A stretch of DNA of 64,000 bases from Candidatus Kerfeldbacteria bacterium (GCA_043813585.1 JBDRKW010000005.1:3409-67408); one strand, 5' to 3'; positions 3,698-46,734 are shown, counted from the first letter of the stretch. The notes: generated by a model from the sequence alone, not told the origin. Made by a program: numbers and translations.

Positions 3698-4948
3698 TTA
3701 TTGAGAGAGTGCGCGTTCAGACCCCGTGGTGCGAGTGGAAACAACCAGCACCCCGAGCCAGGTCCAGAACAGGACAGCCAGGTCGTTCTTGAAGAACGGA
3801 ACGTCGACCAGGCCGTACACAAGAAAGCAGGCCATGACCCCAAGAAGCACAGCCGTATATCCGTCAGAGCGCTTGATCGCCCGGACTGACTTTGCGGCAA
3901 CCAGCACCAGGACAGAAACAATCCATGCCAGGCCCAGGACGCCAAGCTCCACCCAGAAGTTCAGGAAGAGGTTATGCGGGTAGAGCAGCAGCTCCACGTG
4001 CGACGGCAGCCGGTAGATATCATAGACCATGGGGAACGCCGCAAGTCCGGCGCCGAAGACCGGTTGCGCCTTGAGGAGGTTGATGGTTCCTTCCCACAGC
4101 GCGAGCCGCACGTCTCCGGACACATCCTGGAACAGCAAGATCTCGCGGACCGGCTCGAACAAGAAACCAACCGCCACGCCGGCCACTGCCAGCGCAATCG
4201 CCCACCAGCGCCACTTACTGAACAGCGCCATTACGACCGTGCCGGCTGCGACCGCGATGAACGCGCCTTCGACGCGCGCGGCAATGAGGGCAAAGAGCAA
4301 AAAGAGGATCAGGGACAGGACAAAAAGGACATTACTCTTGGTAAAAAACTTCACGTGGAAGAGCAAACCGATGAACAGCGTCAGTATAGGCGCAATGTAG
4401 AGGCCGACCGCGTTCGGATAGCCGTAAAAAGCGGTGGCGCGGCGGTCCGGCAGGTCATGCCACGGGTCCGGGATGCCCCAGCCGGTCGCATATTGCGCGC
4501 CCGCGGCAAGTGCGACCACGAATGCGGAGATTCCAAGCGCCCAAAAGCATAAACGGAGGTCTTCCTTTGACTTCACAGTATGGATAAAGACAAAAAAGTA
4601 TAAAATCGGTTCCAGGATATAGGCCTTAAAGATGCCGGCCCCCGCGCGCAGGTCCGGAGTGACAATCATGCCGAACACGCCGGCAATGACCAGCAGCGCA
4701 ACAGCCACATACCACCATTCAATCCTGCTCGGCGCCCTCAATGAAGACCGGTCCTGCACGAGAAATACCACAAACAGCGTCAGGATAAGCACTTCCAGCA
4801 TCGTCATCGGCAGCAAGCCGAATAATTCAAACCGCACCAGATAGGTCGGCAGCAGCAGCAGGACAAACGCCACGCCCCACAAGCGGTGTTTGGTGCTGAT
4901 GGCGACCAATACGGCCGCAGCGATTAATGATGCTGCAAATGCGATCAT
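3698..4948 (-). CDS. O-antigen ligase/polymerase family (Wzy_C) membrane protein
   Basis: Multi-TM protein. R..W...PVFGAGLAAF and PHNLFLNFWVELGVLGL match the Wzy_C periplasmic-loop motifs. Its last codons overlap the next gene by 4 nt. Confidence 0.5.
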   Translation of the reverse strand: MIAFAASLIAAAVLVAISTKHRLWGVAFVLLLLPTYLVRFELFGLLPMTMLEVLILTLFVVFLVQDRSSLRAPSRIEWWYVAVALLVIAGVFGMIVTPDLRAGAGIFKAYILEPILYFFVFIHTVKSKEDLRLCFWALGISAFVVALAAGAQYATGWGIPDPWHDLPDRRATAFYGYPNAVGLYIAPILTLFIGLLFHVKFFTKSNVLFVLSLILFLLFALIAARVEGAFIAVAAGTVVMALFSKWRWWAIALAVAGVAVGFLFEPVREILLFQDVSGDVRLALWEGTINLLKAQPVFGAGLAAFPMVYDIYRLPSHVELLLYPHNLFLNFWVELGVLGLAWIVSVLVLVAAKSVRAIKRSDGYTAVLLGVMACFLVYGLVDVPFFKNDLAVLFWTWLGVLVVSTRTTGSERALSQ

Positions 4949-6378
4949 GCGCGTTTTTTATGCAGGACCATATTTTGCAGGGCAATGAGCATGCCGATCA
5001 CAAACCAGATATGGACGATGTATAAAATCGAAAAGGTATTGTACTGCACAAGGATCCCTACAAACGCGGCAAAGAAGGCAACAAGGACTGTTTTAATATA
5101 CGGGTCAGCCTTAACTGTCAGCGCTTTCACGGAACGGATGATAACAACAAGAAATACTGCCACCATGGCCGCAAAACCGAGAGTGCCGTTTTCAGCCAGC
5201 AGTTCAAGGTATTCGTTGTTGACGATGCGCCAGCCCTGTTCCGGCACCACAAGCGGATGCCAGCTCTCGAACGGACCAAAGCTGCCGGAGCCGATGCCGA
5301 CCACCGGATGCTGTCGCCACGCCTCTTCCGCGACAGAAAACATGTCTACGCGCTCGGAAAACGAGGCGCCTTCAAACACGCCCGACACATGGCCCAGAAA
5401 TTGCGTCGAAATCACGTCAAACCCGATCACCTGGGTCACCAGAACAATGCCTGCAATGCCCGCCGCAGCAGCATAGAACAGGTTGCGCCAGGTAAACAGC
5501 TTCAACTGGAAGAAATAATACGCAAGAAGAACAAGCGCGCTCGCCGCAAACCCGATGTAGCCGCCGCGTGCGACAGTCAGCACCAGGTTCACAAGCCCGA
5601 GGCCGAACAATCCGATCACCATCCACGATTTCATCGAGCGGTCCCGCGCAAGAAAGAGCGAAAGCAGCACAGACAGCGGAACAAGCAGGTAGTTTGCAAA
5701 ATAGAGCGGCTCCAGCGCGGTGGACTGAACGCGCGGGAAGCCGAGTATCTCTTTCGTGTACAGCTCGCGCAGGCCGGTGATTTCCGGCGGCAGGCCGATG
5801 ATATCGCCGACAAACTGGTACAGCCCAAACAGCGTCACCAACAGCATGGAGAAGAAGAAAAACTGCAGCATCCGTTCCACGACCTCCTTCTTCTTCACGA
5901 CAAACGGAATCATGATGCCGATAAAAAAGGTGAAGATCGTAAACCCGGTGACCATAACGGAGCGCTCCAGGTTCGGGGCGTTCAGCAGGCCAAACAGCTG
6001 GATAATGACGAACAGCGCCAGCGGGAGCGCGATGGGGATGCGCGGAAGCGGGAATTTTTTCCTGCCAAGGTTGTATAGGACAACAGATATAATGACAAGC
6101 AGGGCCGTCACCTGCGACGGACGCACCGTCACGCCGGCAATGTCATACGAGCCCAGCCGTTCAAACGGAATAAAAAACACAAACAGGTACAGGCCGTGCC
6201 AGGGGTTCTCCAGGATAACCATGGCCAGCGCGACCGTCCCGAGCCCGGCAAAGATCCAGAACGGATCGACGCGCCAGCTCAAGAACCCGAGCAGCAGCAC
6301 GAGGCCGCCCAAAAGAAGAAGGGTGAAGACCGTCCGCGCCCGCAGGTATTCAAGTATTTTTTTTACTGCGGCATTCAT
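4945..6378 (-). CDS. O-antigen ligase/polymerase family (Wzy_C) membrane protein, paralog
   Basis: Multi-TM protein. RVDMFSVAEEAWRQHPVVGIGSGSFGPF and NEYLELLAENGTLGF are Wzy_C-like. It has ATGA-type overlaps with both neighbours. Confidence 0.5.
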   Translation of the reverse strand: MNAAVKKILEYLRARTVFTLLLLGGLVLLLGFLSWRVDPFWIFAGLGTVALAMVILENPWHGLYLFVFFIPFERLGSYDIAGVTVRPSQVTALLVIISVVLYNLGRKKFPLPRIPIALPLALFVIIQLFGLLNAPNLERSVMVTGFTIFTFFIGIMIPFVVKKKEVVERMLQFFFFSMLLVTLFGLYQFVGDIIGLPPEITGLRELYTKEILGFPRVQSTALEPLYFANYLLVPLSVLLSLFLARDRSMKSWMVIGLFGLGLVNLVLTVARGGYIGFAASALVLLAYYFFQLKLFTWRNLFYAAAAGIAGIVLVTQVIGFDVISTQFLGHVSGVFEGASFSERVDMFSVAEEAWRQHPVVGIGSGSFGPFESWHPLVVPEQGWRIVNNEYLELLAENGTLGFAAMVAVFLVVIIRSVKALTVKADPYIKTVLVAFFAAFVGILVQYNTFSILYIVHIWFVIGMLIALQNMVLHKKRA

Positions 6379-17645: not shown

Positions 17646-17675
17646 CTTGACGTTTGGCGATTCCTTACATATAAT
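17646..17675 (+). promoter_or_regulatory. Sigma70-type promoter for tRNA-Glu (TTGACG-18-TATAAT)
   Basis: -35 at 17646-17651 and -10 at 17670-17675. The tRNA starts 13 nt downstream. Confidence 0.65.
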
Positions 17676-17687: not shown

Positions 17688-17759
17688 GCCCGCATCGTCT
17701 AATGGTTAGGACATCAGGTTTTCATCCTGGCAATCGGGGTTCGATTCCCCGTGCGGGTG
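17688..17759 (+). tRNA. tRNA-Glu (anticodon UUC); CCA not encoded
   Basis: Hand-folded cloverleaf: acceptor GCCCGCA/TGCGGGT, D-stem GTCT/GGAC, anticodon stem TCAGG/CCTGG with loop TTTTCAT, T-arm CGGGG-TTCGATT-CCCCG. Confidence 0.85.
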
Positions 17760-17800
17760 CTAAAGAAGAAACGTCTCCCATTTGGGAGGCGTTTTTCTTT
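17742..17800 (+). repeat. Direct repeat copy 1: tRNA-Glu 3' end (cgattccccgtgcgggtgc) plus terminator hairpin
   Basis: The 59 bp are identical to 22977-23035. Confidence 0.75.
17771..17800 (+). terminator. Intrinsic terminator after tRNA-Glu (acgtctccc-attt-gggaggcgt, then T5cttt)
   Basis: A 9-bp stem followed by a T-run. The same hairpin recurs at 23001-23035, and a variant at 24382-24412. Confidence 0.6.
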
Positions 17801-17891
17801 ATTATTCCTGCAACGGGGAAGCGAAGGGCAGCAGTGAGGCAAAACGCGTCAGCGTTGCAGCCGAACGCCGCTTGGGTGCCGGCGGCACGCA

Positions 17892-17926
17892 AGCGCTGCC
17901 CCGGACCCGATTCCCCGTGCGGGTGC
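17892..17926 (+). repeat. Direct repeat copy 2: agcgctgccccggacccgattccccgtgcgggtgc
   Basis: Shares a 23-nt core with tRNA-Glu 3'-end-derived copies 3 and 4, and a 35-nt block with copy 3. Confidence 0.75.
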
Positions 17927-18086
17927 CACCATAGAGCACTCCCAAGTTATCACCGGTAATCAGCGCCTATTATATTTTCGATAGGTCGGGATTTATTGCC
18001 TACGGGTTGCCCATATTGGGAGGACAAAAAAACGGCACTGCCCTGCTATACTATAGATAGAGGAGGCAAACAACTTAATCGAAAAA

Positions 18087-18287
18087 ATGACAAAACCATC
18101 AATTGTGAAAAAACATCAAGCGCAGCTCCTTCTCCGTGCCGTGCACGAGATCATGGAGAAATACGCCGGCCCAGCTGCATTCCACGACAAGATATTTTGG
18201 AAAATTCATGCTGCTTTATCCCGACATGAAATGACGATGAAAGAGGCTGAAGAATACGTTTCGGCACTGTCCTCTTCGGCAGAGTGA
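18087..18287 (+). CDS. Small hypothetical protein (66 aa)
   Basis: An ORF only. It is the first gene inside island module 2. A weak RBS is located too far upstream. Confidence 0.25.
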   Translation: MTKPSIVKKHQAQLLLRAVHEIMEKYAGPAAFHDKIFWKIHAALSRHEMTMKEAEEYVSALSSSAE

Positions 18288-18469
18288 CCGTGCAGAATTT
18301 TAGGGATTAGCGCATCGCGCCACTGTATGTTATTGCTAGAATCCTAGCCCAGTCAACAACGGATGAGAGCTCCCTGCCGCTGATCTCACTGAAGAAACCG
18401 AGCGCCTGTGCTTCACTATCAAGATTCCGATATTCTGGGTACAATTCTTTACTAATGAAGTCGAGCAAA

Positions 18470-19996
18470 TCAATCACGCGGGCGTTCCAGCACAAATATA
18501 ATGAAAAGAATGATAAACCCTATCCCTAAGGGATGACTTAAGTATGGAGTAGTAACGTGGACGAATAGAAGACACAGCAGTCCGGTCATGAAACTTAATG
18601 CAAGTACTTTGCGGCCGGTAGTCTGTGCACTGCGGACAACCCTTGCCCCGTGCCAGAACAGCACAACAAACAACACAAGGTAGGCGAGCAACCCAAGCAC
18701 GCCAAGTTCATACAGTAGATCCAAATACCCCCACTCAAATGCAAAAGTCGTGTATTGGTCCGTCCCCATCATGTCGATAGCGCGAGGATCGTCAGTGGTA
18801 TAGGTGAGCGTTGCGCCAAACCCGGAACCGGTATACAGATGCTCATTCACCACGTCCCACAACGGGGCGAGTATGTTCATGCGCGTACTGATAGCCGGTT
18901 CTTCTGCTGTATATGAGGCGCGTTCGCAGACAATCTCCGCAAAAAAGAACCCTTTCCATTGTTCGCCAAGCAGCGGCACGTTCGTAAGCAGGAACAGAAC
19001 AATAAGCGACGCAGCACCGGTTGCAACCGTTAGCACCGCAGCGTGACCAATGTCTTTCCATCGCCATAATTTCGTGCTGACGAATGCGATTGCCATTGCA
19101 ACCATGCTGACTACAAGCGCCAGCCAGAACGAACGCGACCAGCTTGTAATGATAATTGTCAACAGAAGCGCGGAAAACGCGCCGTACACAAACACCTGCT
19201 TTGTCCGTCTTTCTTGCCATGTGGCTACGCAAAATGCGAACGCCACAAAGAAAAACAGCAGGTGAAATATGTGCGACTGAAAGAAAATGCGGTAAAACTG
19301 CTCATGCGTCGGGGTGATTTCGCCCACGCCGGTAACGCGTATCCATCGGTACACTGTGCCATTGAACGCGGTGATGGAATGCGCAAACGTAAATAGCAAC
19401 AACAATGTTGTTACAGACAGCGCAATCATCGCACCGGCCGCCACCTGCAGCAGCCGTTTCAACTGATCTTTTGAAACAATACTTTGGGCAGCCGGTAGAA
19501 TTAATCCCAGAAAGAGGTAGCCGTTCATATCCAGAAAGACGGTGTATAGGTCGTTGCCATGCAGAACGCCGGAAACAGTTCCGAACGCAATGCAACATGT
19601 AAACAAAAGAATCGCTTCCCATACCGGCAGTTGAAAAAAACACACCTGGCGCATGCGAATTGCATGCATGCAGAACGCCAGCATAACCGCAGAGAAAATC
19701 GCGTGACGAACCGAAACCGCAGTGCCTGCAATGTCGATCGCAAACAGATAACCTTTGCTCCCGACCAGGAGCTCGGCAAACGCAATGTATACGCCATACT
19801 CCAGGCGCCATAAAGCAAGCGCAAACGTTGCCAGAGCAATAACCGCAAACGCAACCGTGCCGACAGCGGGATAGACAAAGACGGCAAAGGAAAGGAATTC
19901 AATGCATGCGACCGCAATAAGCGTGACGACCGTCACTTTGCCGAAAAAAAGCAGCCCCTCCCGGCCAGCCGGCTGTTGTGTTATCAGCTTGGGCAT
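18470..19996 (-). CDS. O-antigen ligase family (Wzy_C) membrane protein, third paralog
   Basis: RMNILAPLWDVVNEHLYTGSGFGAT and FAFEWGYLDLLYELGVLG match Wzy_C motifs. Start set to MPKLITQQ at 19996, where the ATG overlaps the upstream stop. Confidence 0.55.
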   Translation of the reverse strand: MPKLITQQPAGREGLLFFGKVTVVTLIAVACIEFLSFAVFVYPAVGTVAFAVIALATFALALWRLEYGVYIAFAELLVGSKGYLFAIDIAGTAVSVRHAIFSAVMLAFCMHAIRMRQVCFFQLPVWEAILLFTCCIAFGTVSGVLHGNDLYTVFLDMNGYLFLGLILPAAQSIVSKDQLKRLLQVAAGAMIALSVTTLLLLFTFAHSITAFNGTVYRWIRVTGVGEITPTHEQFYRIFFQSHIFHLLFFFVAFAFCVATWQERRTKQVFVYGAFSALLLTIIITSWSRSFWLALVVSMVAMAIAFVSTKLWRWKDIGHAAVLTVATGAASLIVLFLLTNVPLLGEQWKGFFFAEIVCERASYTAEEPAISTRMNILAPLWDVVNEHLYTGSGFGATLTYTTDDPRAIDMMGTDQYTTFAFEWGYLDLLYELGVLGLLAYLVLFVVLFWHGARVVRSAQTTGRKVLALSFMTGLLCLLFVHVTTPYLSHPLGIGFIILFIIFVLERPRD

Positions 19997-19997
19997 G

Positions 19998-20882
19998 TTA
20001 CCAGTGGGTAATGTCCTTATTACAGGTATCGTTTGGAATTTCGGTCCAGTCGATCGGGTCATCGCCGCAAATCTCGCGGCACATCTTCAGGTTCATTTTC
20101 CCACGGCGCAGGTCATGGCGCGTTTGCACAAATTCCGGATCCCACCAAATCTCGGCCAACGATTGTTCCGCAACATTCCCGAACGGGTGCCGCACAAAAA
20201 AATCATTCGTACACACGACATTGCCCGCATAATCCACCGCAATTTCATCAGAAACATAGTAGCAACACTTGAATTTATGCGCTTTGTTCACCGGCACCGT
20301 GCCGCCCCGTTCAAAAATCCCGACATTGTCGAGTAACTGCAGGGTGATATACTTCTTCGATTTATCGTCTTCCACCAGCTCCTGCACGACCTTGGGCCAG
20401 TACGCCATATGCTTAGTGATCACGAGCCCGTCCGTGCCTGCATCTATCAGGTCATGGAACAGTTCTTTCGTCAGCGCAACAGCGTTCGTGTGAATGATGA
20501 TAGAAGATTTCGGAAGTTTTTCCCGCACGTACGCCATGAGCGACGGCAGGCGTTTGTCTATCAATGGGTCGCCGTAAAAATGCGGGGAGATCCGCCCTTT
20601 ATATTCAAATGGGAATGCCACCAGGTCATCAATGATCTTTCGGAACATCTCTTCAGTCATGAAATGGTCGCCCCGGTCATAGCGCGCTACGGCACAGTAG
20701 GTGCATTTAAGGTTACAGCGCGAGTTGGTTTCAATATCGAGTGCGGTGAAAATGTCGCTCCGTCCGTAGGTGGCCAGTTTATTGAGCGAGTTGTAGTACC
20801 CGCGTAATGCCGGTTTAACAGCTTCAGGCGACAACCGACGCGCAGCACGATATACAGGATTAAGCAGATATGGTAAACGCAT
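19998..20882 (-). CDS. Radical SAM protein with SPASM/twitch-like C-terminal Cys cluster
   Basis: CNLKCTYC (CX3CX2C) near the N-terminus. C-terminal KFKCCYYVS...YAGNVVCTND...KMCREIC...C cluster. Confidence 0.7.
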   Translation of the reverse strand: MRLPYLLNPVYRAARRLSPEAVKPALRGYYNSLNKLATYGRSDIFTALDIETNSRCNLKCTYCAVARYDRGDHFMTEEMFRKIIDDLVAFPFEYKGRISPHFYGDPLIDKRLPSLMAYVREKLPKSSIIIHTNAVALTKELFHDLIDAGTDGLVITKHMAYWPKVVQELVEDDKSKKYITLQLLDNVGIFERGGTVPVNKAHKFKCCYYVSDEIAVDYAGNVVCTNDFFVRHPFGNVAEQSLAEIWWDPEFVQTRHDLRRGKMNLKMCREICGDDPIDWTEIPNDTCNKDITHW

Positions 20883-20923
20883 AAAGTTAACATATCACCC
20901 AAATGGCCTTTGTCCAAGTACTA

Positions 20924-22786
20924 TTAATTCTGTCTCGCTTCCGAATATGATTGATAAGCGGTTCGATACCAATCCCAATTATCTGGACGTTGCCACTGTA
21001 AATTTAGTTGCGAAATTTCCGCCCGGCTTAAATCAGGGCGCATAATATCAGTTATAGGCACCTCTGAAGCTTCAAGCCTTACGTTTTCATAGAAGCGCCG
21101 TTTAGCACTAATTCGGTATGAGAATGCCGCATCACTTCCTCCATTATTCGATTCAGTGACTTCAAATGATGTTATGCCACGCGTAACATAGACAGAATTT
21201 GAACCTATATCATCGTATAATGTGATCGTGACTTGTATTGGATTTTCTTGATCAATAGTTACTGTATCAAGAAAGAGTGGATCAATATTAATGTGTGCAT
21301 GACCATTTTCAAGTCGTGCTTCACCAAGGTCTTCAAACCATAGTTGTGTCGATTCAACAGCATATAATTTTGTTGGTCCTTGTGTTTGAGTATAGACAAC
21401 AGCTGGTTTTTCACCTGTAGCGCCAATATCACCATCAGCAAAAATCGCATATGCGCTTCCATTTGATGAATCCTCCCTACCGTATACACCATAAATTACA
21501 CCGGTTGTTGCTTGCGCAATTCCAGCCACTCCCGATGTGCCTGTGGCATTGGACTTCGCCTCACCATATACACCATATGTTGGACTACCTGATGTTGCAA
21601 GAGCGCTACCCCAGATACCAGAAGAGCCTTCTGCTGAAGAATATGTTTCACCCATGACACCATGACCTCTTCCAGAGAACTGGCCAGATCCATCAGGGTC
21701 GCCGATTGATCCACCCCAAACACCAGCGCCGAAAGTGTTTGCATCTTGAGTAGTTGCCCAATTAAAACCCATCACGCCGACTTGGCCATCAGTTGGATCA
21801 TCGTTAATGGCATCACCGCGCACACCCACAGGTTGTCCGAGTAGCGCCCCGGTAGCATTTGCAATGCCCCATATTCCGAATGGATTTGCTGAACCGCTGT
21901 TTGCAATACCCCTGATCGCAGTTTCATCACTGGGAGTAGAATTTTTTATTACGTATAATTTAGAATTTTTACATTGCCATTTTGGCGGAATGGATTCATC
22001 CTCACAATCAATGATTTCATCCTCATTAATAAGTACTGCACCACTATCTGTAATACGCATACGCTCATTATTTCCATCTGTATTGAAAATAATATTATCG
22101 GAGGACGTGGACTGTAATGTGAGGTCACCAGAGTTCGGTCCGTAAAGAATATCTTCAATCTTTAGATCACCAGCAACATGCAATAATTGGGCAGGACTAG
22201 TGGTGCCGATGCCTACCTTTCCATCTGACGCAAGCCGCATGCGCTCACTGTTTCCTGCGATAAGATACATATCGTCACCAGATGCACCGAGTGAAACATA
22301 GCCGGAATCAGTTGTGCTGTTGTCTATAAACGTAATACCAGCTAAAGCGTCTTCACTATGCAAACGAAGTCCGATATTCGTAGTACCACTATTTATGTGC
22401 AGCATCGATGCCGGGCTTGTTGTTCCGATTCCGACGTTTCCGGTGGAGGCAATACGTATTCGTTCCGCGTTTCCCGCTTTAAGCTGCATATCATTACCAA
22501 TTGCGCCGAGCACTACATAGCTATCTGACGTTGTTGAGTTGTCCTGAAAGGACATGTATGACATTGAATCCGTGCTTTGCAAGCGCATGCCAATATTGGT
22601 TCCACCACTGTCAATGTCCAGTTTTTTCGCGGGACTACTATTGCCAATTCCAACATTTCCAGAAACCGCGCTATACATATCAGATCCAGAAATCGTCCAG
22701 TCGCTGTCTGCCGCAACATTCGTTGCAGAAGCGATAAATAAAATCATAGCACAGAAAGTTGTTATGAAAGCGCGCGACATAGGCAT
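20924..22786 (-). CDS. Secreted tail-fibre-like repeat protein (repeated ERMRI...GNVGIGTTSPA modules)
   Basis: Signal peptide. At least 4 repeats of ...GNVGIGTTSPAxxLhV... interspersed with ERMRI/ERIRI, as seen in tail-fibre-domain proteins. Confidence 0.5.
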   Translation of the reverse strand: MPMSRAFITTFCAMILFIASATNVAADSDWTISGSDMYSAVSGNVGIGNSSPAKKLDIDSGGTNIGMRLQSTDSMSYMSFQDNSTTSDSYVVLGAIGNDMQLKAGNAERIRIASTGNVGIGTTSPASMLHINSGTTNIGLRLHSEDALAGITFIDNSTTDSGYVSLGASGDDMYLIAGNSERMRLASDGKVGIGTTSPAQLLHVAGDLKIEDILYGPNSGDLTLQSTSSDNIIFNTDGNNERMRITDSGAVLINEDEIIDCEDESIPPKWQCKNSKLYVIKNSTPSDETAIRGIANSGSANPFGIWGIANATGALLGQPVGVRGDAINDDPTDGQVGVMGFNWATTQDANTFGAGVWGGSIGDPDGSGQFSGRGHGVMGETYSSAEGSSGIWGSALATSGSPTYGVYGEAKSNATGTSGVAGIAQATTGVIYGVYGREDSSNGSAYAIFADGDIGATGEKPAVVYTQTQGPTKLYAVESTQLWFEDLGEARLENGHAHINIDPLFLDTVTIDQENPIQVTITLYDDIGSNSVYVTRGITSFEVTESNNGGSDAAFSYRISAKRRFYENVRLEASEVPITDIMRPDLSRAEISQLNLQWQRPDNWDWYRTAYQSYSEARQN

Positions 22787-22816
22787 ATAATTAATTGATT
22801 ATATGATCGTAATTCC

Positions 22817-22845
22817 ATTATAGGGGGGGGGACAGCGATAAGTAA
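22817..22845 (-). promoter_or_regulatory. Promoter of the tail-fibre-like gene: TTACTT-17-TATAAT with a C9 tract filling the spacer
   Basis: -10 complement at 22817-22822 and -35 complement at 22840-22845. The spacer (22823-22839) consists of G9 (22823-22831) plus acagcgat. Confidence 0.5.
22823..22831. repeat. Homopolymeric G9/C9 tract
   Basis: This is the longest G/C homopolymer seen in the window. It lies in the promoter spacer. Confidence 0.9.
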
Positions 22846-22958
22846 AGAATTTCAGGGCTGTAAGGAGGAGCCGCATTAATATTAATACTTAAACTGCTGG
22901 TTATTATGATTCGTACCCCATGCATTTTGGAAACGCACTGTTGTTGACACAACAGGAA

Positions 22959-23035
22959 AGCGCTGCCCCGGACCCGATTCCCCGTGCGGGTGCTAAAGAA
23001 GAAACGTCTCCCATTTGGGAGGCGTTTTTCTTTTT
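22959..23035 (+). repeat. Direct repeat copy 3: extended core plus identical terminator hairpin
   Basis: agcgctgccccggacccgattccccgtgcgggtgc followed by taaagaagaaacgtctcccatttgggaggcgtttttcttt. Confidence 0.75.
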
Positions 23036-23104
23036 CACATTTTATGCTGTAATATTATGAATCATCACTCGTATACAAAGCATATAATTAAAGAGCATAC
23101 CATC

Positions 23105-24361
23105 ATGAAAAATGTAATCATTGGCATTGCGATTGCGGCTGCGGTTGCGGGAATTGCCCTTGCCGCCTATTTTATTATTCCGGCTGTATCAGAGAACAAG
23201 CAAGTGCAGGCCGAGGCAGATGGCGTAACGGCATCCGACGAGAACAACGAAGCGACGGAAGAAGGAACGCAAGCAACGGAGGAACAGGAGGCGACGGCCA
23301 TAACAGACGTATCTCCCTACGCGGTTGTGAGCACGGAAAAAATAATGGATTTAAATGGCAGCAATAATGAATGGCTGCCCAGTCGCGTGAACGGTTGGCT
23401 GGAAAAAGGAGCGAGCTTTGAATTCGCTATTCCATTTGAAGGGTGTGAGGCATTCTGCGGGCCTGACGTTACGTATTCCTACGACATCGCAACAGGTGAA
23501 ACAGAAAAAACCTTAAACCCGCTAATGGAAGAAGGCTGGCGGCTCTCTCCGGATGAACGTCGTGCAATCCGAATTCGCAGAGTTGAAGACCATGATGACG
23601 AATCAGGCGACGGGGGAACGATTGAAATGATGGACATTCAATCAGGCAATACATATGTCATTGCTAAAGAGACATTCCTCACCGGAGCCGGCGGCACCTG
23701 GGTATCCGAAAAATATACCTATCCGCGCTGGTCGCCGGACAGCAAATGGATTGTGATGTACGACAAGAGCCAGTGGGATGAAAACGGGCCGATGGTCGTA
23801 CTGTTCCCTTCAGACGCGGCAGACCTCTCCGGTTTGGCTGAACTGGGGCAATCAATATTTATTGAGACCGAGCGTGCCCCGTACGAGCAGTACTTCATCT
23901 GGTCGCCGGACAGCACCTACTTCATTGTAAATGACAATACGGATGTATTCTCGGCAGCGGAAGGGAAGCGCATCTATGAATCCAACCGCGATGAACGTGT
24001 ATTCGCCTGGTCTCCAAAAAGCGACAAGGTACTCATCGCAACGGTCTCCGATGATGAGGACACGCGCGGCCTTTCTTCGCTCTCTATAATGAACCCGGAC
24101 GGAACCGACAGGGTATTGATATTCAAGGATGTGCTCGTTGATAGCCTCTATGATATTTTTGCCTCCTGGTCCGAAGATGGAACACAGGTATTGGTTTCAA
24201 TGAACGACCAACTCGTGATCTATGACCTGGAGAGCAAGATGAGCGGTTTGGTTGCGGCGCAGGAAGGCGGGTTCAGGAATATCGCCTGGAACAAAGACGG
24301 CAGGCAGGTACTGTTTGACCGGGATAACGCTGCATGGCTCCTGGAGTACACGCGGGAATAG
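23105..24361 (+). CDS. Membrane-anchored PD40/TolB-like beta-propeller repeat protein
   Basis: N-terminal TM segment. Recurrent WSPDSKWIV, WSPDSTYFIV, FAWSPKSDKVLI, ASWSEDGTQVLV and IAWNKDGRQVLF strands. Start set to the ATG at 23105. Confidence 0.5.
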   Translation: MKNVIIGIAIAAAVAGIALAAYFIIPAVSENKQVQAEADGVTASDENNEATEEGTQATEEQEATAITDVSPYAVVSTEKIMDLNGSNNEWLPSRVNGWLEKGASFEFAIPFEGCEAFCGPDVTYSYDIATGETEKTLNPLMEEGWRLSPDERRAIRIRRVEDHDDESGDGGTIEMMDIQSGNTYVIAKETFLTGAGGTWVSEKYTYPRWSPDSKWIVMYDKSQWDENGPMVVLFPSDAADLSGLAELGQSIFIETERAPYEQYFIWSPDSTYFIVNDNTDVFSAAEGKRIYESNRDERVFAWSPKSDKVLIATVSDDEDTRGLSSLSIMNPDGTDRVLIFKDVLVDSLYDIFASWSEDGTQVLVSMNDQLVIYDLESKMSGLVAAQEGGFRNIAWNKDGRQVLFDRDNAAWLLEYTRE

Positions 24362-24379
24362 AACATCAGCTGTGACAAT

Positions 24380-24449
24380 AAACGCCTCCCTTCCCGGGAG
24401 GTGTTTTCTTTACTATTCTTGCCTCAGACCCGATTCCCCGTGCGGGTGC
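24380..24449 (+). repeat. Direct repeat copy 4: related terminator hairpin (aaacgcctccc-ttcc-cgggagg) followed by core gacccgattccccgtgcgggtgc
   Basis: The 23-nt core is identical to copies 2 and 3. The module order is inverted (hairpin before core). Confidence 0.7.
24382..24412 (+). terminator. Intrinsic terminator (cgcctccc-ttcc-cgggaggtg, then ttttcttt)
   Basis: A hairpin plus T-run immediately after the PD40 gene. It is homologous to the tRNA-Glu terminator. Confidence 0.55.
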
Positions 24450-24771
24450 ACTAACAAGTATTGACAAATCCGGAATAAATTCGTAGGGTGCAAAGTCCGT
24501 CAAGAAGGCGGAGAGAAGCCTGTATATATGGACTATAGGCTCTTCTTCGTCTCATCCAGAAGAGGCCACTCCCAGAGCGGAACAAATGCAGCCCTGCCGA
24601 ATTCGCGGTAAACACATCTCCCCAGGAGGTGTGGGCTGTGGGATTGCACCCGGATGAAAGCGCCTCAGGCGCTGGGCGTCGCATCGTGCTGTCGGACCTG
24701 CAGCACAATGATGGCTCTCCTCAGGAGAGTTCAGACGAATCCAAAAGAGGGTCACAAGGGAGGATGACACA

Positions 24772-25566
24772 ATGTCGTCCAAGAACGAGAACGGATGGAT
24801 GGATGACCTGAAGGAGCTGCTCGTGGAATCGGATCGGGCGCTCCGGTACTTCCTCGTGCTGTTCAATGCAGCGTGCAGCCGGTCGGACCTGCGCAGGATG
24901 TGCGGGGACGACAAGGTGGTTCGCCCGAACTGCCGCCTGTTCAAGCCCGACCAGATCGAGCTCGAGAAGATCTGGATGCGCTCGTACACCGAGCAGGGCG
25001 TGAATCCCCCGACCGGCGGCAAGCGCCATCCGGATGCGGTGGTCCGCCTGATGCTCGACGAGGTCGAACCTCCGCATGGGCTCTCGGGCTACTATGCGCT
25101 CGCGATCATGCGCGCGCTGGAAGCCCGGCCGGAGCCGAACACTGAGCACGACATCTTCCACGTCACACCCGAGCGGTTGGGGGAACTCAACTGCGGTGGG
25201 CACTTTCTCTGCGCGACTCTCGAGGGCCTGGACGCGGACTTCCAGATGAAGTGCACGCTGATCAGCCGTGAAGACCGGCGGTTCCTCGTGGAGATCGAGA
25301 TCTACCAGTGGGACCTCACCCAGCAGGTCGCGACAGCACTGCGGGTCTCGGGCTGGACGCTCGATGACGCGCGTGTGTGCGGCCGCGGCAAGAAGTTCAC
25401 GTTCTGGTGGGAGGTCACTGCGCCGCAGCTGCTCGAGCACATCGAGGAGATCGACGGTGCCCTCCACGTCACGTCCGACGTGTACTACACGTCGCTGTTC
25501 ATGCTGATGCGGGCGAACGGCATTCCGGTCACCGGCGTCACCCCGAGCGAGGACTGGGTCATCTAG
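24772..25566 (+). CDS. Hypothetical protein, GC/GC3-rich (candidate acquired gene B)
   Basis: AAGGGAGG RBS 7 nt upstream of the ATG. Protein-like only in this frame. No recognisable domain. Confidence 0.45.
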   Translation: MSSKNENGWMDDLKELLVESDRALRYFLVLFNAACSRSDLRRMCGDDKVVRPNCRLFKPDQIELEKIWMRSYTEQGVNPPTGGKRHPDAVVRLMLDEVEPPHGLSGYYALAIMRALEARPEPNTEHDIFHVTPERLGELNCGGHFLCATLEGLDADFQMKCTLISREDRRFLVEIEIYQWDLTQQVATALRVSGWTLDDARVCGRGKKFTFWWEVTAPQLLEHIEEIDGALHVTSDVYYTSLFMLMRANGIPVTGVTPSEDWVI

Positions 25567-25639
25567 AAGCGTTCAACCACGCTCACCTTTCATAGCCGAT
25601 TCATTTCGGCGGCAGGTATGAAAGGCCGCAACACATCAA

Positions 25640-25668
25640 GAACCATGGGAACACCTGCCGTTCCCTTC
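25640..25668 (+). terminator. Intrinsic terminator (gggaac-acctgcc-gttccc, then cttcT9)
   Basis: A 6-bp stem plus a long T-run after gene B. Confidence 0.55.
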
Positions 25669-25673
25669 TTTTT

Positions 25674-26030
25674 TTATATCTCAATTTCCTTCCAGACGAG
25701 ATCCCTGGACTTGAAATACTTTTTTGTAAATTCTGCGGCCCGTTCAGCAGAAAACGGTTTGCAGGTATACGCATCCACGGTAAACAACGGAGGCGTTGTA
25801 TTGTTATAGGTATAGAAGTGCGCACCGGACGTGATCCAGTGGATCCATGCCCCGTGCCCGACATCTTCCGCCTGATACACAAACGGTTCCTGCAACGCAC
25901 GCATGTTCAGCTCTTCAGACAGCGCAGACAGGTACGCGGCAATCTGATCCGGCGTGATCGGTTTATCGGTCGTGCCTTCAATCACCACGCGCTGCCGAAT
26001 GATATCTGGTGCCAATTTTTTCCATTCCAT
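25674..26030 (-). CDS. S-adenosylmethionine decarboxylase-like (SpeH-fold) small protein; the canonical ESH processing site is not conserved
   Basis: GAWIHWITSGAHFYTY...FTVDAYTCKPF aligns to [20 protein letters not shown]...AIDLFTCG of class 1 AdoMetDC. 118 aa. Confidence 0.35.
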   Translation of the reverse strand: MEWKKLAPDIIRQRVVIEGTTDKPITPDQIAAYLSALSEELNMRALQEPFVYQAEDVGHGAWIHWITSGAHFYTYNNTTPPLFTVDAYTCKPFSAERAAEFTKKYFKSRDLVWKEIEI

Positions 26031-26080
26031 ATATTCGCATTACTTGTTAACGCAGAAGCATAGAAGAGGAAACAGGGGGA

Positions 26081-26998
26081 ATGCAATTTTTTTCACGAAT
26101 ATCACACATTAGTAAACAGAATGTTTACTTTTTAGGCATATTGTACTATGCTGGTGCCATGTTTTTAAGCGACGGAAAAACAATCGAGAACATCATCATC
26201 TGGCAGCTCAAATCCGGCCCGCAGAGCACGGTTGGTTTGATTGCGGCTGTGCAGAAAGAGCGCCGCGGAACCACGAAGCAGGGCGTGTACCGCGTTCTTC
26301 GCGAACTCAAGAAGCAGGAGGCGGTGGTCATCCATAAAAAAGAGGTCTCACTCAACATCCGCTGGCTGAACAAGTTGTATGACTTCACGTCGCTCGCCCA
26401 GCACTTTTATTATGAGAAAAGTATCGGCACCGGGCATTTCGCAAACCTGCAGGAAGGTGAGAAGATCAAATACACCTTCAACAACCTGTCCCTCACTGAC
26501 GCGTTCTGGAACCATGCACTGTACATTCTCCATCAGATTGTGCCGGACGCGGAGCCGTGGTACGCATACGACCCGCACGTATGGTTCTATATCGCCCGGC
26601 TTGAGGACGAAACAGCGCTCATGAAACGCATGTCCGCCCGCAGGCAGTACCTGATCACCTCCGGCCATAACGACCCGATGGACAAGGTTGTCTCGCAATA
26701 CATCGACGGCACAACCGGCCAATACCACATGTTGAAAAAGCCGCTCTTTGACGACGAGTCGTATTACTTCAATATACTTGGCGACTTCCTGATTGAGGTC
26801 TGGTTTGACAGGGAAGTGGCAAAGGCGATTACCGCGTGGTATGCATCAACGAAAAAAATGACAGATACCGCAGTTGAAGATCTACGGAAAATAATTCAGT
26901 CTGAAGGAAAAACTAAATTGGTCATTTCCTGTAACAAGAAGAAAGCCGATCGGTTGAAAAAGAGGATCTCGAGATATTTCTATATCCCGGCGGCATGA
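26081..26998 (+). CDS. Hypothetical protein (possible N-terminal winged-helix region)
   Basis: An ORF only. GTTKQGVYRVLRELKKQEAVV resembles a wHTH recognition helix. The start is uncertain (an alternative ATG lies at 26159). Confidence 0.35.
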   Translation: MQFFSRISHISKQNVYFLGILYYAGAMFLSDGKTIENIIIWQLKSGPQSTVGLIAAVQKERRGTTKQGVYRVLRELKKQEAVVIHKKEVSLNIRWLNKLYDFTSLAQHFYYEKSIGTGHFANLQEGEKIKYTFNNLSLTDAFWNHALYILHQIVPDAEPWYAYDPHVWFYIARLEDETALMKRMSARRQYLITSGHNDPMDKVVSQYIDGTTGQYHMLKKPLFDDESYYFNILGDFLIEVWFDREVAKAITAWYASTKKMTDTAVEDLRKIIQSEGKTKLVISCNKKKADRLKKRISRYFYIPAA

Positions 26999-27003
26999 AA
27001 CTA

Positions 27004-27032
27004 TTGCGCTGCGGGAGAAATGCCGATAGTAT
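27004..27032 (+). promoter_or_regulatory. Promoter TTGCGC-17-TAGTAT ending 6 nt before the tsaD ATG (leaderless)
   Basis: -35 at 27004-27009 and -10 at 27027-27032. ATG at 27039. Confidence 0.5.
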
Positions 27033-27038
27033 GGACGC

Positions 27039-28070
27039 ATGAAGATCCTGGGCATCGAGACATCCTGCGACGACACCGGAGCCGCAATCGTGGAAGCGCG
27101 CGGCGACGGCAGCTTTGACATACTCGCAAACGTCATAAAGCAGCAGGACCATACGGAAACCGGCGGGGTGGTGCCGGAGATTGCCGCGCGCCATCACGCA
27201 ACATCGGTTCTGCCGGCGATTGATGAGGCACTGAAGGAAGCCGGCATGAAAATTGGGGGCATCGATGCGCTTGCGGTCACACGCGGACCCGGGTTGATCG
27301 CCTGCCTGCTTGTCGGAGTAGAAACAGCCAAGACTATTGCCATGGCCAAGGGCATGCCGATCATAGGCGTGAACCATATGGAAGCGCATATCGCTTCCAC
27401 TTTTGTTGAACATCCGCACATGGAGTTTCCGGCAGTAGCGCTGCTGGCAAGCGGCGGACACACCATGCTCGTAGGCATCAACGAACCGGGCGATTATTAT
27501 ATGATAGGAACAACGCGCGACGACGCGGCCGGGGAAGCGTTTGATAAAGTTGCAAAGATGCTTGGGTTGTCATACCCCGGCGGACCGGAGTTGGAAAAAC
27601 TGGCAAAAAAAGGCGACCCATATGCGCACGACTTCCCAAAACCGATGATCAACTCCGACGACATTGATTTTTCTTTCGCCGGTCTGAAAACAGCAATCAA
27701 ATATTATATCCGCGACAATAGTCCACTTTCGGATGAAGGCCGCGCTGATATCGCCGCATCCTTCCAGGAGAGCATTGCGCAGGTACTGGTAAGCAAGACG
27801 CTCCAGGCAGCAGATCGGCACGAAGCGAAAACAGTAGTACTGGGCGGCGGTGTATCGGCAAACAAGATGCTTGTAGATCGGCTGCATTCCGTATTCCAAG
27901 AAGTGCGGCCGGAAACAGAAATCATGGTGCCTTCGCCCGGCTTGTTCACGGACAACGGCGCCATGATCGCGATTGCCGCGGCACCGCGCGCACTAACGGG
28001 CGACTATGACGACTGGAGAAAAATCACAGTAAACCCCAAACTGCGAATAGCAGAAAGTGAGAGTAAATAA
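27039..28070 (+). CDS. tsaD: tRNA N6-adenosine threonylcarbamoyltransferase TsaD
   Basis: MKILGIETSCDDTGAAIVE... and HMEAHI metal-binding motifs. 343 aa. Confidence 0.85.
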   Translation: MKILGIETSCDDTGAAIVEARGDGSFDILANVIKQQDHTETGGVVPEIAARHHATSVLPAIDEALKEAGMKIGGIDALAVTRGPGLIACLLVGVETAKTIAMAKGMPIIGVNHMEAHIASTFVEHPHMEFPAVALLASGGHTMLVGINEPGDYYMIGTTRDDAAGEAFDKVAKMLGLSYPGGPELEKLAKKGDPYAHDFPKPMINSDDIDFSFAGLKTAIKYYIRDNSPLSDEGRADIAASFQESIAQVLVSKTLQAADRHEAKTVVLGGGVSANKMLVDRLHSVFQEVRPETEIMVPSPGLFTDNGAMIAIAAAPRALTGDYDDWRKITVNPKLRIAESESK

Positions 28071-46050: not shown

Positions 46051-46124
46051 GACAGGGTAGCTCAGCTGGTTAGAGCACGGGACTCATAAGCCCGGGGTCG
46101 AGAGTTCGAATCTCTCCCCTGTCA
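46051..46124 (+). tRNA. tRNA with CAU anticodon (elongator Met or lysidine-modified Ile2); CCA not encoded
   Basis: Cloverleaf: acceptor GACAGGG/CCCTGTC (G1-C72, so not the initiator), D-stem GCTC/GAGC, anticodon loop CTCATAA, T-arm GAGAG-TTCGAAT-CTCTC. Confidence 0.8.
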
Positions 46125-46249
46125 CATTACTAAAAAAAAGAACCTGCGGCCGCACCCTTCACATTGGCGTGAGGGGCGGGAGTTGCCACGCAAAGAGCGC
46201 AGCCGCAGGATCGGGAGGCCTCGTCCGCCAGTCGGGGACGGGCCAATTC

Positions 46250-46642: not shown

Positions 46643-46734
46643 GGTTTATCCTCCTGGTTGCAAAGACCTGGGCGTGCATTGCCGCATGCACCGCACCCGC
46701 TTTTTGACTGTGACGCGGCTGGGTAACGTATGAT

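What the first reader, a model, noticed from the sequence alone, without database searches (positions are those of the whole stretch)
17688..24449. Four direct copies of the tRNA-Glu 3' end delimit tandem island modules, but no integrase is present
The last 19 nt of tRNA-Glu (cgattccccgtgcgggtgc) recur at 17908-17926, 22975-22993 and 24431-24449.
- Copies 2-4 share a longer, non-tRNA variant (gacccgattccccgtgcgggtgc).
- Copies 1 and 3 carry an identical 40-nt terminator hairpin, and copy 4 a homologous hairpin in the inverted order.

This is the classic footprint of serial site-specific integrations into a tRNA gene (attL, internal att sites, attR). Three modules result:
- about 0.17 kb (empty);
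- about 5.1 kb (small ORF, Wzy_C-like membrane protein, rSAM/SPASM enzyme, tail-fibre-like protein);
- about 1.45 kb (PD40-repeat protein).

No tyrosine or serine recombinase is present. The elements are therefore either decayed or trans-mobilised.
Basis: seen in the sequence. Interest (0 to 1): 0.7.

Follow-up and report, generated by a model that had tools for sequence, protein, structure and literature searches.

The report
tRNA-Glu insertion hotspot with tRNA-derived RNA
Downstream of a tRNA-Glu gene in an uncultured Kerfeldbacteria (Patescibacteria) genome, about 8 kb of lineage-specific genes is bracketed by repeats of the tRNA's tail, but the first "empty module" is really a conserved, folded, tRNA-derived RNA-like element from which the other repeats derive.

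Summary
The last 19 nt of tRNA-Glu(UUC) occur four times, exactly and in direct orientation (17742, 17908, 22975, 24431), against about 0.02 matches expected by chance.

- **Supported:** relatives have TsaD 269-421 nt from tRNA-Glu, whereas the window has 9.3 kb there. The locus is therefore an insertion hotspot. No recombinase domain is detectable in any large ORF of the 64-kb window.
- **Wrong:** the "0.17-kb empty module" is not an island. Together with copy 2 it forms a ~125-nt element, here called X (17804-17926). X is conserved directly behind tRNA-Glu in two other Kerfeldbacteria lineages that lack these modules. Its fold is supported by five compensatory base-pair changes, and it has no Rfam match. 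X looks like the acceptor/T-arm half of tRNA-Glu with a ~92-nt insert in the T-loop.
- **Origin of copies 3 and 4:** they carry X-specific flanks (35-41 nt and 23 nt), so they derive from X, not from the tRNA.
a further foreign gene (an ORFan with GC3 0.88) lies outside the last repeat.

Best reading: att-type recombination at the 3' end of a tRNA-like RNA gene, leaving CIME-like islands that lack an integrase. Repeat-driven homologous recombination and misassembly remain open rivals.

The parts
17647..17675 (+). Promoter-like site upstream of tRNA-Glu (TTGACG, 17-nt spacer, TATAAT)
   Evidence: Consensus scan, 11 of 12 positions match. Partly conserved in L011.
17688..17760 (+). tRNA-Glu(UUC). 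Its last 19 nt (17742-17760) are repeat copy 1.
   Evidence: ARAGORN; Rfam tRNA model, 60.6 bits; exact-match search.
17761..17800 (+). Terminator hairpin T1 with its T-tract. Stem-loop at 17767-17796.
   Evidence: Terminator scan, 13 pairs. A hairpin sits at the same place in L011 and L017, with different stem sequences that still pair.
17804..17926 (+). Element X, a conserved ~125-nt structured, tRNA-Glu-derived RNA-like element. Its last 19 nt (17908-17926) are repeat copy 2. It has an acceptor-like stem (CCUGCA/UGCGGG), a T-stem-derived stem (CGGGGAA/UUCCCCG), a long-range stem (GGGCAGC/GCUGCCC), a conserved hairpin (GCUUGGGUGCC-GGC-GGCACGCAAGC) and a variable hairpin near 17841-17862.
   Evidence: 89% identical to L011 over 258 nt and 79% to L017 over 249 nt, although the adjacent HSP20 proteins are only 74% and 64% identical. 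MFE -67.5 kcal/mol, z = -3.2. Covariance model R1 scores 148.9, 136.4 and 110 bits. Five pairs changed on both sides; 99% of cells paired against 37-51% in slid controls. No Rfam hit at E <= 10.
17927..22952 (.). Module B (~5.0 kb). Contents: 66-aa ORF 18087-18287 (+); Wzy_C-like membrane protein 18470-20062 (-); radical SAM/SPASM enzyme 19998-20882 (-); tail-fibre-like 620-aa protein 20924-22786 (-).
   Evidence: Pfam, PHROGs, NCBIfam. Absent from every related locus. GC3 is 0.56, 0.61 and 0.33 for the three large genes. rSAM orthologues sit beside the infA-rpsM operon in relatives. The best full-length relative of the 620-aa protein is 35% identical.
22953..22993 (+). Duplicate of the last 41 nt of X: 35 nt identical, 41 nt at 95%. 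Its last 19 nt (22975-22993) are repeat copy 3.
   Evidence: Repeat family D2; sequence; blastn 97% over 36 nt to the 3' end of X in L011.
22994..23033 (+). Second, 100% identical copy of terminator T1. With copy 3 it forms a 59-nt exact repeat of 17742-17800.
   Evidence: Repeat family D3; terminator scan.
23034..24376 (+). Module C (~1.3 kb between its flanking hairpins). One gene, 23105-24361, encodes a membrane-anchored PD40/beta-propeller protein of 418 aa.
   Evidence: Pfam PD40. Host-like codon usage, GC3 0.57. No relative in the fetched loci or in IMG/VR.
24377..24449 (+). T1' hairpin (24380-24406, 72% identical to T1), then ACTATTCTTGC (9 of 11 match the 5' start of X), CTCA and GACC, then repeat copy 4 (24431-24449). 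This is a degenerate, internally shortened T1-X unit.
   Evidence: Repeat families D1 and D2; terminator scan; flank comparison. There is a weak further similarity between the 3' end of the PD40 gene and the 5' part of X (p about 0.04, uncorrected).
24450..25670 (+). Module D, outside the last repeat. It holds a 320-nt leader and an ORFan gene, 24772-25566 (264 aa), of foreign composition. It ends at the bidirectional terminator 25647-25665.
   Evidence: GC 0.64, GC3 0.88, coding score 0.32 per codon, RBS AAGGGAGG upstream. The only match among 1.84 billion representative proteins is itself. No Pfam, PHROGs or NCBIfam hit.
25674..27038 (.). Right-hand genes conserved in some relatives: AdoMet_dc-like 118-aa gene 25674-26030 (-) and 305-aa gene 26081-26998 (+). 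TsaD follows at 27039-28070.
   Evidence: In L004 both genes lie directly next to tRNA-Glu, at 62% and 44% amino-acid identity. Pfam.

Best explanation
The region 3' of tRNA-Glu in this Kerfeldbacteria genome is a gene-flux hotspot organised around a tRNA-derived RNA gene.

**Element X.** Directly behind tRNA-Glu and its terminator lies X, about 125 nt long. It looks like the acceptor/T-arm half of tRNA-Glu, with a structured insert of about 92 nt exactly where the T-loop is split. X therefore ends in the same 19 nt as the tRNA. No room for a promoter exists between terminator T1 and X. X is therefore probably made by read-through from the tRNA promoter and trimmed like a tRNA. This step is inferred.

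**Modules B and C.** Module B (5.0 kb) is closed by a 35-41-nt copy of the 3' end of X, and module C (1.3 kb) by a 23-nt copy. This is the pattern left when a circular element carrying a mimic of the target's 3' end recombines with the 3' end of a tRNA-like gene and restores it. This step is also inferred.

**No recombinase in cis.** The modules are therefore fixed, or mobilisable only in trans, and in that respect CIME-like. The 35-59-nt direct repeats are also long enough for RecA-dependent loss of the modules.

**Later exchange.** The 59-nt identity between core + T1 at copies 1 and 3 points to a later homologous exchange between the tRNA copy and the X copy. Module D (the ORFan) and the 620-aa gene are compositionally foreign. 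The rSAM, Wzy-like and PD40 genes are host-like.
For: **Shown by tool results**
- Four exact direct repeats, far beyond chance.
- X is conserved in L011 and L017/L018, in the same position, without modules B-D.
- The X fold has five compensatory pairs, and 99% of cells pair against 37-51% in slid controls. Its G-U pairs work only on the + strand. Fold z-scores are -3.2 and -3.0.
- X has no Rfam match.
- Empty or different intervals in relatives with the same flanking genes: L067 421 nt, L015 269 nt, L004, L013, L017 and L002.
- Copies 2 and 3 share 35 nt, including 16 X-specific nt. Copies 2-4 share the X-specific GACC.
- The identity block begins in the T-loop, as at the Dehalococcoides ssrA islands (PMC3146451).
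- No recombinase domain in any large ORF of the window.
- Mixed composition of the modules.

**Inferred**
- Transcription and processing of X.
- Site-specific recombination as the mechanism.
Against: - No recombinase, circular form or attP-bearing element was found anywhere. IMG/VR lacks even the 19-nt core, and JGI metagenomes lack the variant.
- Copy 3 is followed by a perfect copy of the tRNA's terminator. A simple integration into X does not predict this and needs an extra exchange step.
- Nothing resembling a terminator follows copy 4, although X has its own terminator in L011 and L017.
- Module D has no closing repeat.
- The rSAM and Wzy-like genes are lineage-typical, which fits an internal rearrangement as well as it fits import.
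- X rests on only three independent sequences. Its outer helix could be an inherited tRNA stem rather than a selected feature.
- X is absent from several equally close relatives (L013, L015, L019, L067).
- No strain-level relative was available, so the order of events is not resolved.
Confidence: 0.5

Rival explanations
1. No site-specific recombination took place. The repeated blocks (core, the 3' end of X, T1) arose by unequal homologous recombination, segmental duplication and gene conversion among the tRNA-Glu, X and terminator sequences. The genes in between arrived by other routes, for example internal translocation or DNA uptake followed by recombination with conserved flanks.
For: - The 59-nt and 35-41-nt identities are longer than a typical recombinase core and long enough for RecA.
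- The copy 3 junction (3' end of X + core + T1) is exactly the product expected from an exchange between copy 2 and copy 1.
- T1' plus the short X-like unit at copy 4 looks like an old duplicate of T1-X.
- The rSAM and Wzy-like genes have orthologues or homologues elsewhere in related genomes.
- None of the differently filled intervals in relatives (L013, L017, L002) carries an integrase either.
Against: - Duplication alone does not bring in 5 kb of unrelated DNA between the copies.
- All three non-tRNA copies share the same left boundary (GACC|CGATT) in the T-loop, which is the classic signature of an att site.
- The ORFan with GC3 0.88 and the 620-aa gene with GC3 0.33 must have come from outside.
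Confidence: 0.28
2. The array is partly an assembly artefact. The 59-nt exact repeat (core + T1) lets a short-read assembler join alternative paths. The 5,233-bp segment containing module B could then belong to another strain variant, or to a circular molecule that shares the repeat, rather than lying in tandem.
For: - The window comes from a metagenome-assembled genome. P0001, P0121 and P0159 are each found on a single 94,281-bp NCBI contig.
- The repeat is 59 nt long and exact.
- Contigs of related populations often break in or just after this tRNA: L012, L068, L069 and L073.
Against: - The order tRNA-T1-X is confirmed independently in L011 and in L017/L018, from different assemblies.
- A misjoin would not create the 35-nt X-specific repeat at the far end of module B, nor copy 4.
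- Copy 2 continues directly into module B without any repeat-length ambiguity beyond 35 nt.
Confidence: 0.08
3. One reading: three serial integrations into tRNA-Glu itself. Copy 1 would be attL, copies 2 and 3 internal att sites, copy 4 attR, and the 0.17-kb module an emptied island.
For: Direct repeats of the tRNA's 3' end, disrupted synteny and no integrase in cis.
Against: - The 0.17-kb unit is conserved and structured in lineages that lack the islands.
- Copy 1 is followed by the tRNA's own terminator, not by an element arm.
- Copies 3 and 4 carry X-type left flanks, not tRNA-type ones.
- A foreign gene lies beyond the supposed attR.
Confidence: 0.07

Closest known systems
Tandem genomic islands at tRNA/tmRNA genes, e.g. 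the Dehalococcoides ssrA genomic islands (McMurdie et al. 2011, PMC3146451)
   Same: Both have several islands in series downstream of a small RNA gene. Each island is bounded by a ~20-nt direct repeat of that gene's 3' end. [quoted passage not shown] A conserved non-gene motif sits just upstream of each repeat. Local synteny is disrupted, and some islands lack integration genes.
   Different: In Dehalococcoides, most islands carry a serine-recombinase integration module next to attL; none is present here. Here the repeats derive from a second, tRNA-derived element (X) rather than from the tRNA itself. The modules are very small (1.3-5 kb) and partly carry lineage-typical genes.
Cis-mobilisable elements (CIMEs) and site-specific accretion, e.g. 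the ICESt1/ICESt3 family of Streptococcus thermophilus (reviewed in PMC5704250)
   Same: Both are segments flanked by att-type direct repeats, without integration or transfer genes, arranged in tandem at the 3' end of a target gene.
   Different: CIMEs are defined as decayed ICEs or IMEs and are mobilised by a cognate element that integrates alongside them. Here there are no remnants of mobility genes, and no cognate ICE, IME or phage is known. No Patescibacteria example was found in the literature searches.
tRNA-like non-coding RNAs: the tmRNA tRNA-like domain, bacterial Y-RNA-like YrlA, mascRNA (own knowledge; these families are in Rfam)
   Same: X has an acceptor-like helix stacked on a T-stem-derived helix, about 13 bp in all, like the top half of a tRNA. 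It is attached to a different structured body and is encoded next to a tRNA.
   Different: X has no intact T-loop or D-arm and no encoded CCA. It lacks the G3-U70 identity element and any tag ORF. It matches no Rfam family even at E <= 10, and ARAGORN calls it neither a tRNA nor a tmRNA.
Integron cassette arrays (attI/attC; own knowledge)
   Same: Both have small promoter-poor gene modules in series, separated by structured repeats that have conserved ends and a variable middle.
   Different: No IntI integrase was found. The repeats are not imperfect palindromes of the R''-L''/L'-R' type. Only X is full length, the other copies being 3' fragments. Module genes lie on both strands.

Membership tests
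Integrase-mediated tRNA-targeted genomic island / prophage | Direct repeats of the 3' part of a tRNA gene flank the inserted DNA | tested here: met
   Four exact 19-nt copies in direct orientation. However, the flanks of copies 2-4 match X rather than the tRNA.
Integrase-mediated tRNA-targeted genomic island / prophage | A tyrosine or serine recombinase gene lies inside the island, usually next to one att site | tested here: not met
   No recombinase family in Pfam, PHROGs or NCBIfam for any island ORF or any other large ORF of the window. The only unexplained proteins are a 66-aa ORF and an ORFan of 264 aa. The AF2 model of the ORFan was unusable, with pLDDT 38.6.
Integrase-mediated tRNA-targeted genomic island / prophage | The insert is absent from the orthologous site in related genomes | tested here: met
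   TsaD lies 421 nt (L067) or 269 nt (L015) from tRNA-Glu. L004 has the 118-aa and 305-aa genes adjacent to the tRNA. L013, L017 and L002 hold other genes. These are genus- or family-level relatives only; no strain-level comparison was possible.
Integrase-mediated tRNA-targeted genomic island / prophage | Composition differs from the host genome | tested here: inconclusive
   The 620-aa gene (GC3 0.33) and the ORFan (GC3 0.88) deviate from host genes (0.56-0.70). The Wzy-like, rSAM and PD40 genes do not.
Integrase-mediated tRNA-targeted genomic island / prophage | Excision to a circular form, and an attP on a free element | not testable with these tools
   No reads were available. There were no attP candidates in IMG/VR or JGI metagenomes.
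CIME (cis-mobilisable element) | [quoted passage not shown] | tested here: met
   Modules B and C are each bounded by repeats and contain no mobility genes. Definition taken from PMC5704250.
CIME (cis-mobilisable element) | Derived by decay of an ICE or IME, and mobilisable by a cognate element's integrase | not testable with these tools
   No remnants of mobility genes were seen, and no cognate element was found in any collection searched. The rest of the genome was not available.
tRNA gene (membership of X / copy 2) | Cloverleaf with D, anticodon and T arms, recognised by tRNA models | tested here: not met
   ARAGORN finds only the tRNA at 17688-17760. The Rfam tRNA model does not hit 17804-17926 even at E <= 10. 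X keeps only acceptor-like and T-stem-like pairings.
Any curated RNA family (Rfam 15) | Score at or near a family's gathering threshold | tested here: not met
   No match over X at E <= 10. Only the two tRNAs reach gathering score in the whole window.
Integron | IntI integrase with attI, and attC sites closing each cassette | tested here: not met
   No Phage_integrase/IntI hit in the window. Copies 3 and 4 are one-sided 3' fragments, not palindromic attC sites.

The most novel reading that the evidence does not exclude
X would be a previously undescribed class of tRNA-derived small RNA in Kerfeldbacteria. It consists of a tRNA-Glu top half with a structured domain in the T-loop. Its 3' end would act as a dedicated landing site where gene cassettes lacking an integrase, mostly cell-surface genes, are captured and exchanged by a recombinase supplied in trans. 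In that reading the locus is a cassette platform built on a tRNA-like RNA gene rather than on the essential tRNA itself.
Probability: 0.12. Interest if true: 0.75.

Novelty: new variant of a known kind. Interest (0 to 1): 0.45.

Why it matters
Little is documented about mobile elements and gene flux in Patescibacteria (CPR). The literature searches here found no paper dealing with tRNA-linked islands in this group.

This locus shows a tRNA-Glu-linked slot whose content differs in every lineage examined. In this genome it carries cell-surface genes: a Wzy-like protein, an rSAM enzyme, a tail-fibre-like protein with a possible phase-variable promoter, and a PD40 propeller. Such genes plausibly matter for attachment to a host or for phage evasion in an episymbiont.

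The unexpected part is X. It is a conserved, folded derivative of tRNA-Glu that no RNA family covers. It also accounts for the origin of the "att" repeats.
- If X is expressed, it adds a new tRNA-like small RNA.
- If X is the recombination target, it shows how a genome can offer a tRNA look-alike as an integration site.

The case also carries a practical caution. A short "empty module" between tRNA-end repeats should be checked for conservation before it is called a scar.

Tried and rejected
1. **Exact look-ups of the window's HSP20.** Three attempts, covering two start codons and P0001, all returned "not on record". The rest of the source contig could therefore not be fetched.
2. **Scan for the X-type variant CCCGATTCCCCGTGCGGGTGC in JGI metagenomes.** No hits.
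3. **Scan for the 5' block of X, ACGGGGAAGCGAAGGGCAGC, in JGI metagenomes.** One hit (L014), which lies inside an FtsK-like coding region with no tRNA nearby. It is a chance match.
4. **IMG/VR scans.** The 23-nt variant, a degenerate X 3' pattern and the bare 19-nt core each gave no hits. The hairpin pattern GGGTGCCRGCGGCACGC gave 44 hits, none with X-like flanks, so these are chance matches in GC-rich DNA.
5. **Viral relatives of the 620-aa and PD40 proteins.** None found.
6. **The ORFan as a hidden recombinase.** It has no family hit and no homologue among 1.84 billion representatives. The single-sequence AlphaFold model had pLDDT 38.6, so no fold search was run.
7. **The 391-aa and 189-aa ORFs beside tRNA-Met as possible integrases.** They have no family hit. 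The sequences look like a repeat-rich hydrophilic protein and a spurious GC-rich ORF.
8. **A second full X upstream of copy 3.** The covariance-model hit at 22812-22996 scores 20.9 bits. Its 5' half has many broken pairs, and the score comes from the 41-nt 3' duplicate.
9. **Shared element arms after copies 2, 3 and 4.** No significant similarity. The only signal, between the 3' end of the PD40 gene and the 5' part of X, has p about 0.04 before correction for 21 comparisons.
10. **Strain-level variation in the P0008 population.** Every contig that passes the tRNA shows the same downstream sequence.
11. **Known classes considered for X and rejected.** SRP RNA, tmRNA, Y RNA, 6S RNA, small ribozymes and a split or intron-containing tRNA. 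There is no Rfam or ARAGORN support, and the architecture does not fit.


Full report
**1. The observation**

ARAGORN and the Rfam tRNA model place tRNA-Glu(UUC) at 17688-17760 on the + strand. Its last 19 nt, CGATTCCCCGTGCGGGTGC, occur four times in the 64-kb window. All four are exact and on the + strand, at 17742, 17908, 22975 and 24431. Allowing three mismatches adds no further hit. Shuffled sequence gave a mean of 0.02 matches, and no shuffle reached four.

- Copies 2-4 are preceded by GACC where the tRNA has GGTT.
- Copies 1 and 3 share 59 identical nt, made of the core plus the 40-nt terminator T1 (family D3).
- Copies 2 and 3 share 35 identical nt that extend upstream of the core, or 41 nt at 95% (family D2).
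- Upstream of copy 4 lies a hairpin, T1', that is 72% identical to T1 together with its 3' tail (family D1).

**2. Organism and setting**

The flanks are housekeeping genes.
- Upstream: a polysaccharide cluster, SpoIID, QueA, RuvB, VanW and HSP20.
- Downstream: TsaD, DsbA, an HD protein and ValS.

The HSP20, rSAM and 620-aa proteins are each identical to proteins of one NCBI MAG named Candidatus Kerfeldbacteria, on a 94,281-bp contig. The nearest relatives in all collections have HSP20 proteins only 60-74% identical. No strain-level comparison is therefore possible.

**3. The interval is an insertion hotspot**

Relatives keep the order VanW-HSP20-tRNA-Glu. What follows the tRNA differs in every lineage.

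| Locus | What follows tRNA-Glu |
|---|---|
| L067 | TsaD after 421 nt, then DsbA, HD and ValS as in the window |
| L015 | TsaD after 269 nt |
| L004 | Homologues of the window's 118-aa and 305-aa genes, directly adjacent |
| L013 | 9.7 kb of unrelated genes (sulfatase, two-component system, GH3, MFS) before TsaD |
| L017 | Yet other genes |
| L002 | Yet other genes |
| Window | 9.3 kb before TsaD |

None of these intervals encodes a recombinase. So 17761-25670 is lineage-specific DNA.

**4. The "empty 0.17-kb module" is a conserved structured element**

L011 comes from a Logan assembly, and its HSP20 is 74% identical to the window's. It has the same arrangement: tRNA-Glu, a terminator, about 125 nt, then a second copy of the core preceded by GCGCTGCCCAGGACC. 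L017 and L018 (HSP20 64% identical) have it too.

- Across the segment from the tRNA to the end of X, the window is 89% identical to L011 over 258 nt and 79% identical to L017 over 249 nt.
- Within that segment, the terminator stems and one internal hairpin have diverged. The rest is almost as conserved as the tRNA.
- The sequence folds with MFE -67.5 kcal/mol (z = -3.2). The L011 version gives z = -3.0.
- A covariance model built from the three sequences finds only these loci, at 110-149 bits.
- Counted on the model alignment, 99% of cells pair, against 37-51% when the partners are slid by 1-3 columns. Five pairs changed on both sides and stayed paired: three in GGGCAGC/GCUGCCC -> GGGUUGG/CCAACCC and two in GCUUG/CAAGC -> GGUAG/CUACC. 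Six pair types use G-U, which works only on the + strand.
- Rfam has no match at E <= 10.

I call this element X (17804-17926). Read against the tRNA, X keeps an acceptor-like 5' strand (UCCUGCA against GCCCGCA) and the 5' strand of the T-stem (CGGGG). A ~92-nt body then sits exactly where the T-loop is split, followed by CGAUU-CCCCG-UGCGGGU-GC. X is therefore the top half of tRNA-Glu carrying a structured insert.

Three caveats apply. Only three independent sequences exist. The outer helix may be inherited from the tRNA rather than selected. X is absent from L013, L015, L019, L067, L002 and L003.

No room for a promoter exists between T1 and X. Co-transcription with the tRNA and tRNA-like processing are therefore my inference, not a result.

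**5. What copies 3 and 4 are**

Copy 3 is the last 41 nt of X followed by a perfect T1. Copy 4 sits in a unit made of T1', ACTATTCTTGC (9 of 11 match the start of X), CTCA, GACC and the core. This is a shortened and diverged T1-X unit.

Both copies therefore descend from X rather than from the tRNA. In att terms the series runs as follows.

| Copy | Left flank, core, right flank | Junction type |
|---|---|---|
| 1 | tRNA, core, T1 | attB-like |
| 2 | 3' end of X, core, left end of module B | attP-like, or attL if X is the target |
| 3 | X-like arm, core, T1 | attR-like |
| 4 | diverged X-like arm, core, module D | - |

This fits integration of module B into the 3' end of X with a 35-nt identity block. 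It fits only if the terminator behind X was, or became, a copy of T1.

It does not fit three serial integrations into the tRNA. The shared left boundary (GACC|CGATT) in the T-loop parallels the Dehalococcoides ssrA islands. There a 20-bp repeat, an adjacent conserved motif and a mid-T-loop insertion point define tandem islands, and some of those islands lack integration genes (PMC3146451).

**6. Cargo**

| Module | Coordinates | Content and origin |
|---|---|---|
| B | 17927-22952 | Mosaic. The rSAM gene has 60-65% orthologues in other Kerfeldbacteria, beside the infA-rpsM-rpoA operon. A Wzy_C homologue lies in that same neighbourhood. Both have host-like GC3. The 620-aa tail-fibre-like protein has GC3 0.33, and its best full-length relative is 35% identical. 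|
| C | 23034-24376 | A membrane-anchored PD40 propeller with host-like composition. |
| D | 24450-25670 | Lies beyond copy 4. Carries a 264-aa ORFan with a strong coding signal, GC3 0.88, and no relative among 1.84 billion representative proteins. It is clearly foreign and is not closed by a repeat. |

**7. Recombinase**

No integrase, resolvase or transposase family matches any island ORF or any other large ORF of the window. The ORFan's structure could not be modelled, with pLDDT 38.6. No attP-bearing element was found in IMG/VR or in JGI metagenomes.

**8. Verdict**

The repeats are real and the site is a hotspot.

The most likely history is att-type recombination at the 3' end of a tRNA-like RNA gene (X). 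It left small CIME-like modules without an integrase, and was followed by homologous exchange between the tRNA copy and the X copy. Confidence is 0.5.

The remaining alternatives are these.
- Purely homologous, repeat-driven rearrangement: 0.28.
- Misassembly at the 59-nt repeat: 0.08.

The known kind is a set of tandem tRNA/tmRNA-linked islands or CIMEs (PMC5704250; PMC3146451). The new twist is X, a candidate uncatalogued tRNA-derived RNA that supplies the repeats.

Noticed in passing
window 22823-22831 (promoter-like site 22846-22817, - strand): A run of 9 G (poly-C on the - strand) lies in the 18-nt spacer directly upstream of the TATAAT of the best promoter-like site for the 620-aa tail-fibre-like gene. 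This is the layout of slipped-strand phase-variable promoters of surface proteins.
   Followed up: no
window 24772-25566 (+): A 264-aa ORFan with a strong coding signal, a good RBS and GC3 of 0.88, against 0.56-0.70 in host genes. Its only match among 1.84 billion representative proteins is itself, and it has no family hit. The AF2 model was unusable, with pLDDT 38.6. It is preceded by a 320-nt hairpin-rich leader (24450-24771).
   Followed up: partly
window 19998-20882 (-); L064 10001-11002; L066 1307-2227: Orthologues of the island's radical SAM/SPASM gene (60-65% identical) in other Kerfeldbacteria sit next to the infA-rpsM-rpsK-rpsD-rpoA operon, with a polysaccharide/Wzy_C cluster a few kb away. 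The gene therefore seems to have moved to the tRNA-Glu slot in this genome. More distant homologues (48-50%) occur in Spirosoma and Klebsiella.
   Followed up: partly
L068 1-111, L069 and L073 contig ends, L012 1-206: Several independent assemblies of related populations break inside or within 36 nt after tRNA-Glu. One breaks exactly in the T-loop (...GGTTCGATTCC). All contigs that read through show one and the same downstream sequence. This could be an assembly effect or hidden variation at this site.
   Followed up: partly
L004 4197-4269: In Candidatus Microgenomatus auricola, tRNA-Glu lies between the same neighbours (118-aa gene and HSP20) but on the opposite strand relative to HSP20, compared with the window and all other relatives.
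   Followed up: no
L011 about 1650-1660 (- strand reading): About 65 nt downstream of X and its terminator, L011 has GCGCTGCCCCG. This is an 11-nt match to the X-specific arm that precedes copies 2 and 3 in the window, but no core follows it. It could be chance or the trace of another event.
   Followed up: no
L011 1-870: The DNA about 0.9 kb beyond X in L011 is visibly very GC-rich and carries a partial 271-aa gene. This is reminiscent of the high-GC foreign gene at the window's locus, but tblastn detects no similarity.
   Followed up: partly
window 3698-4948 and 4945-6378 (-): Two further Wzy_C (O-antigen ligase/polymerase-like) paralogues lie in the upstream polysaccharide cluster, so the island's Wzy-like gene is a third copy within 20 kb.
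   Followed up: no
window 46122-47951 (-), next to tRNA-Met 46051-46125: The ORFs directly after tRNA-Met have no family hits. The 391-aa product is a charged, repeat-rich protein, and the 189-aa ORF looks spurious (Arg/Gly/Pro-rich). No repeat of the 3' end of tRNA-Met exists in the window.
   Followed up: partly
tool behaviour: P0001 is listed as a 100% identical NCBI protein on a 94,281-bp contig, yet look-ups of its encoding contig returned "not on record". The 30 kb of the source contig outside the window could therefore not be inspected for a recombinase.
   Followed up: yes
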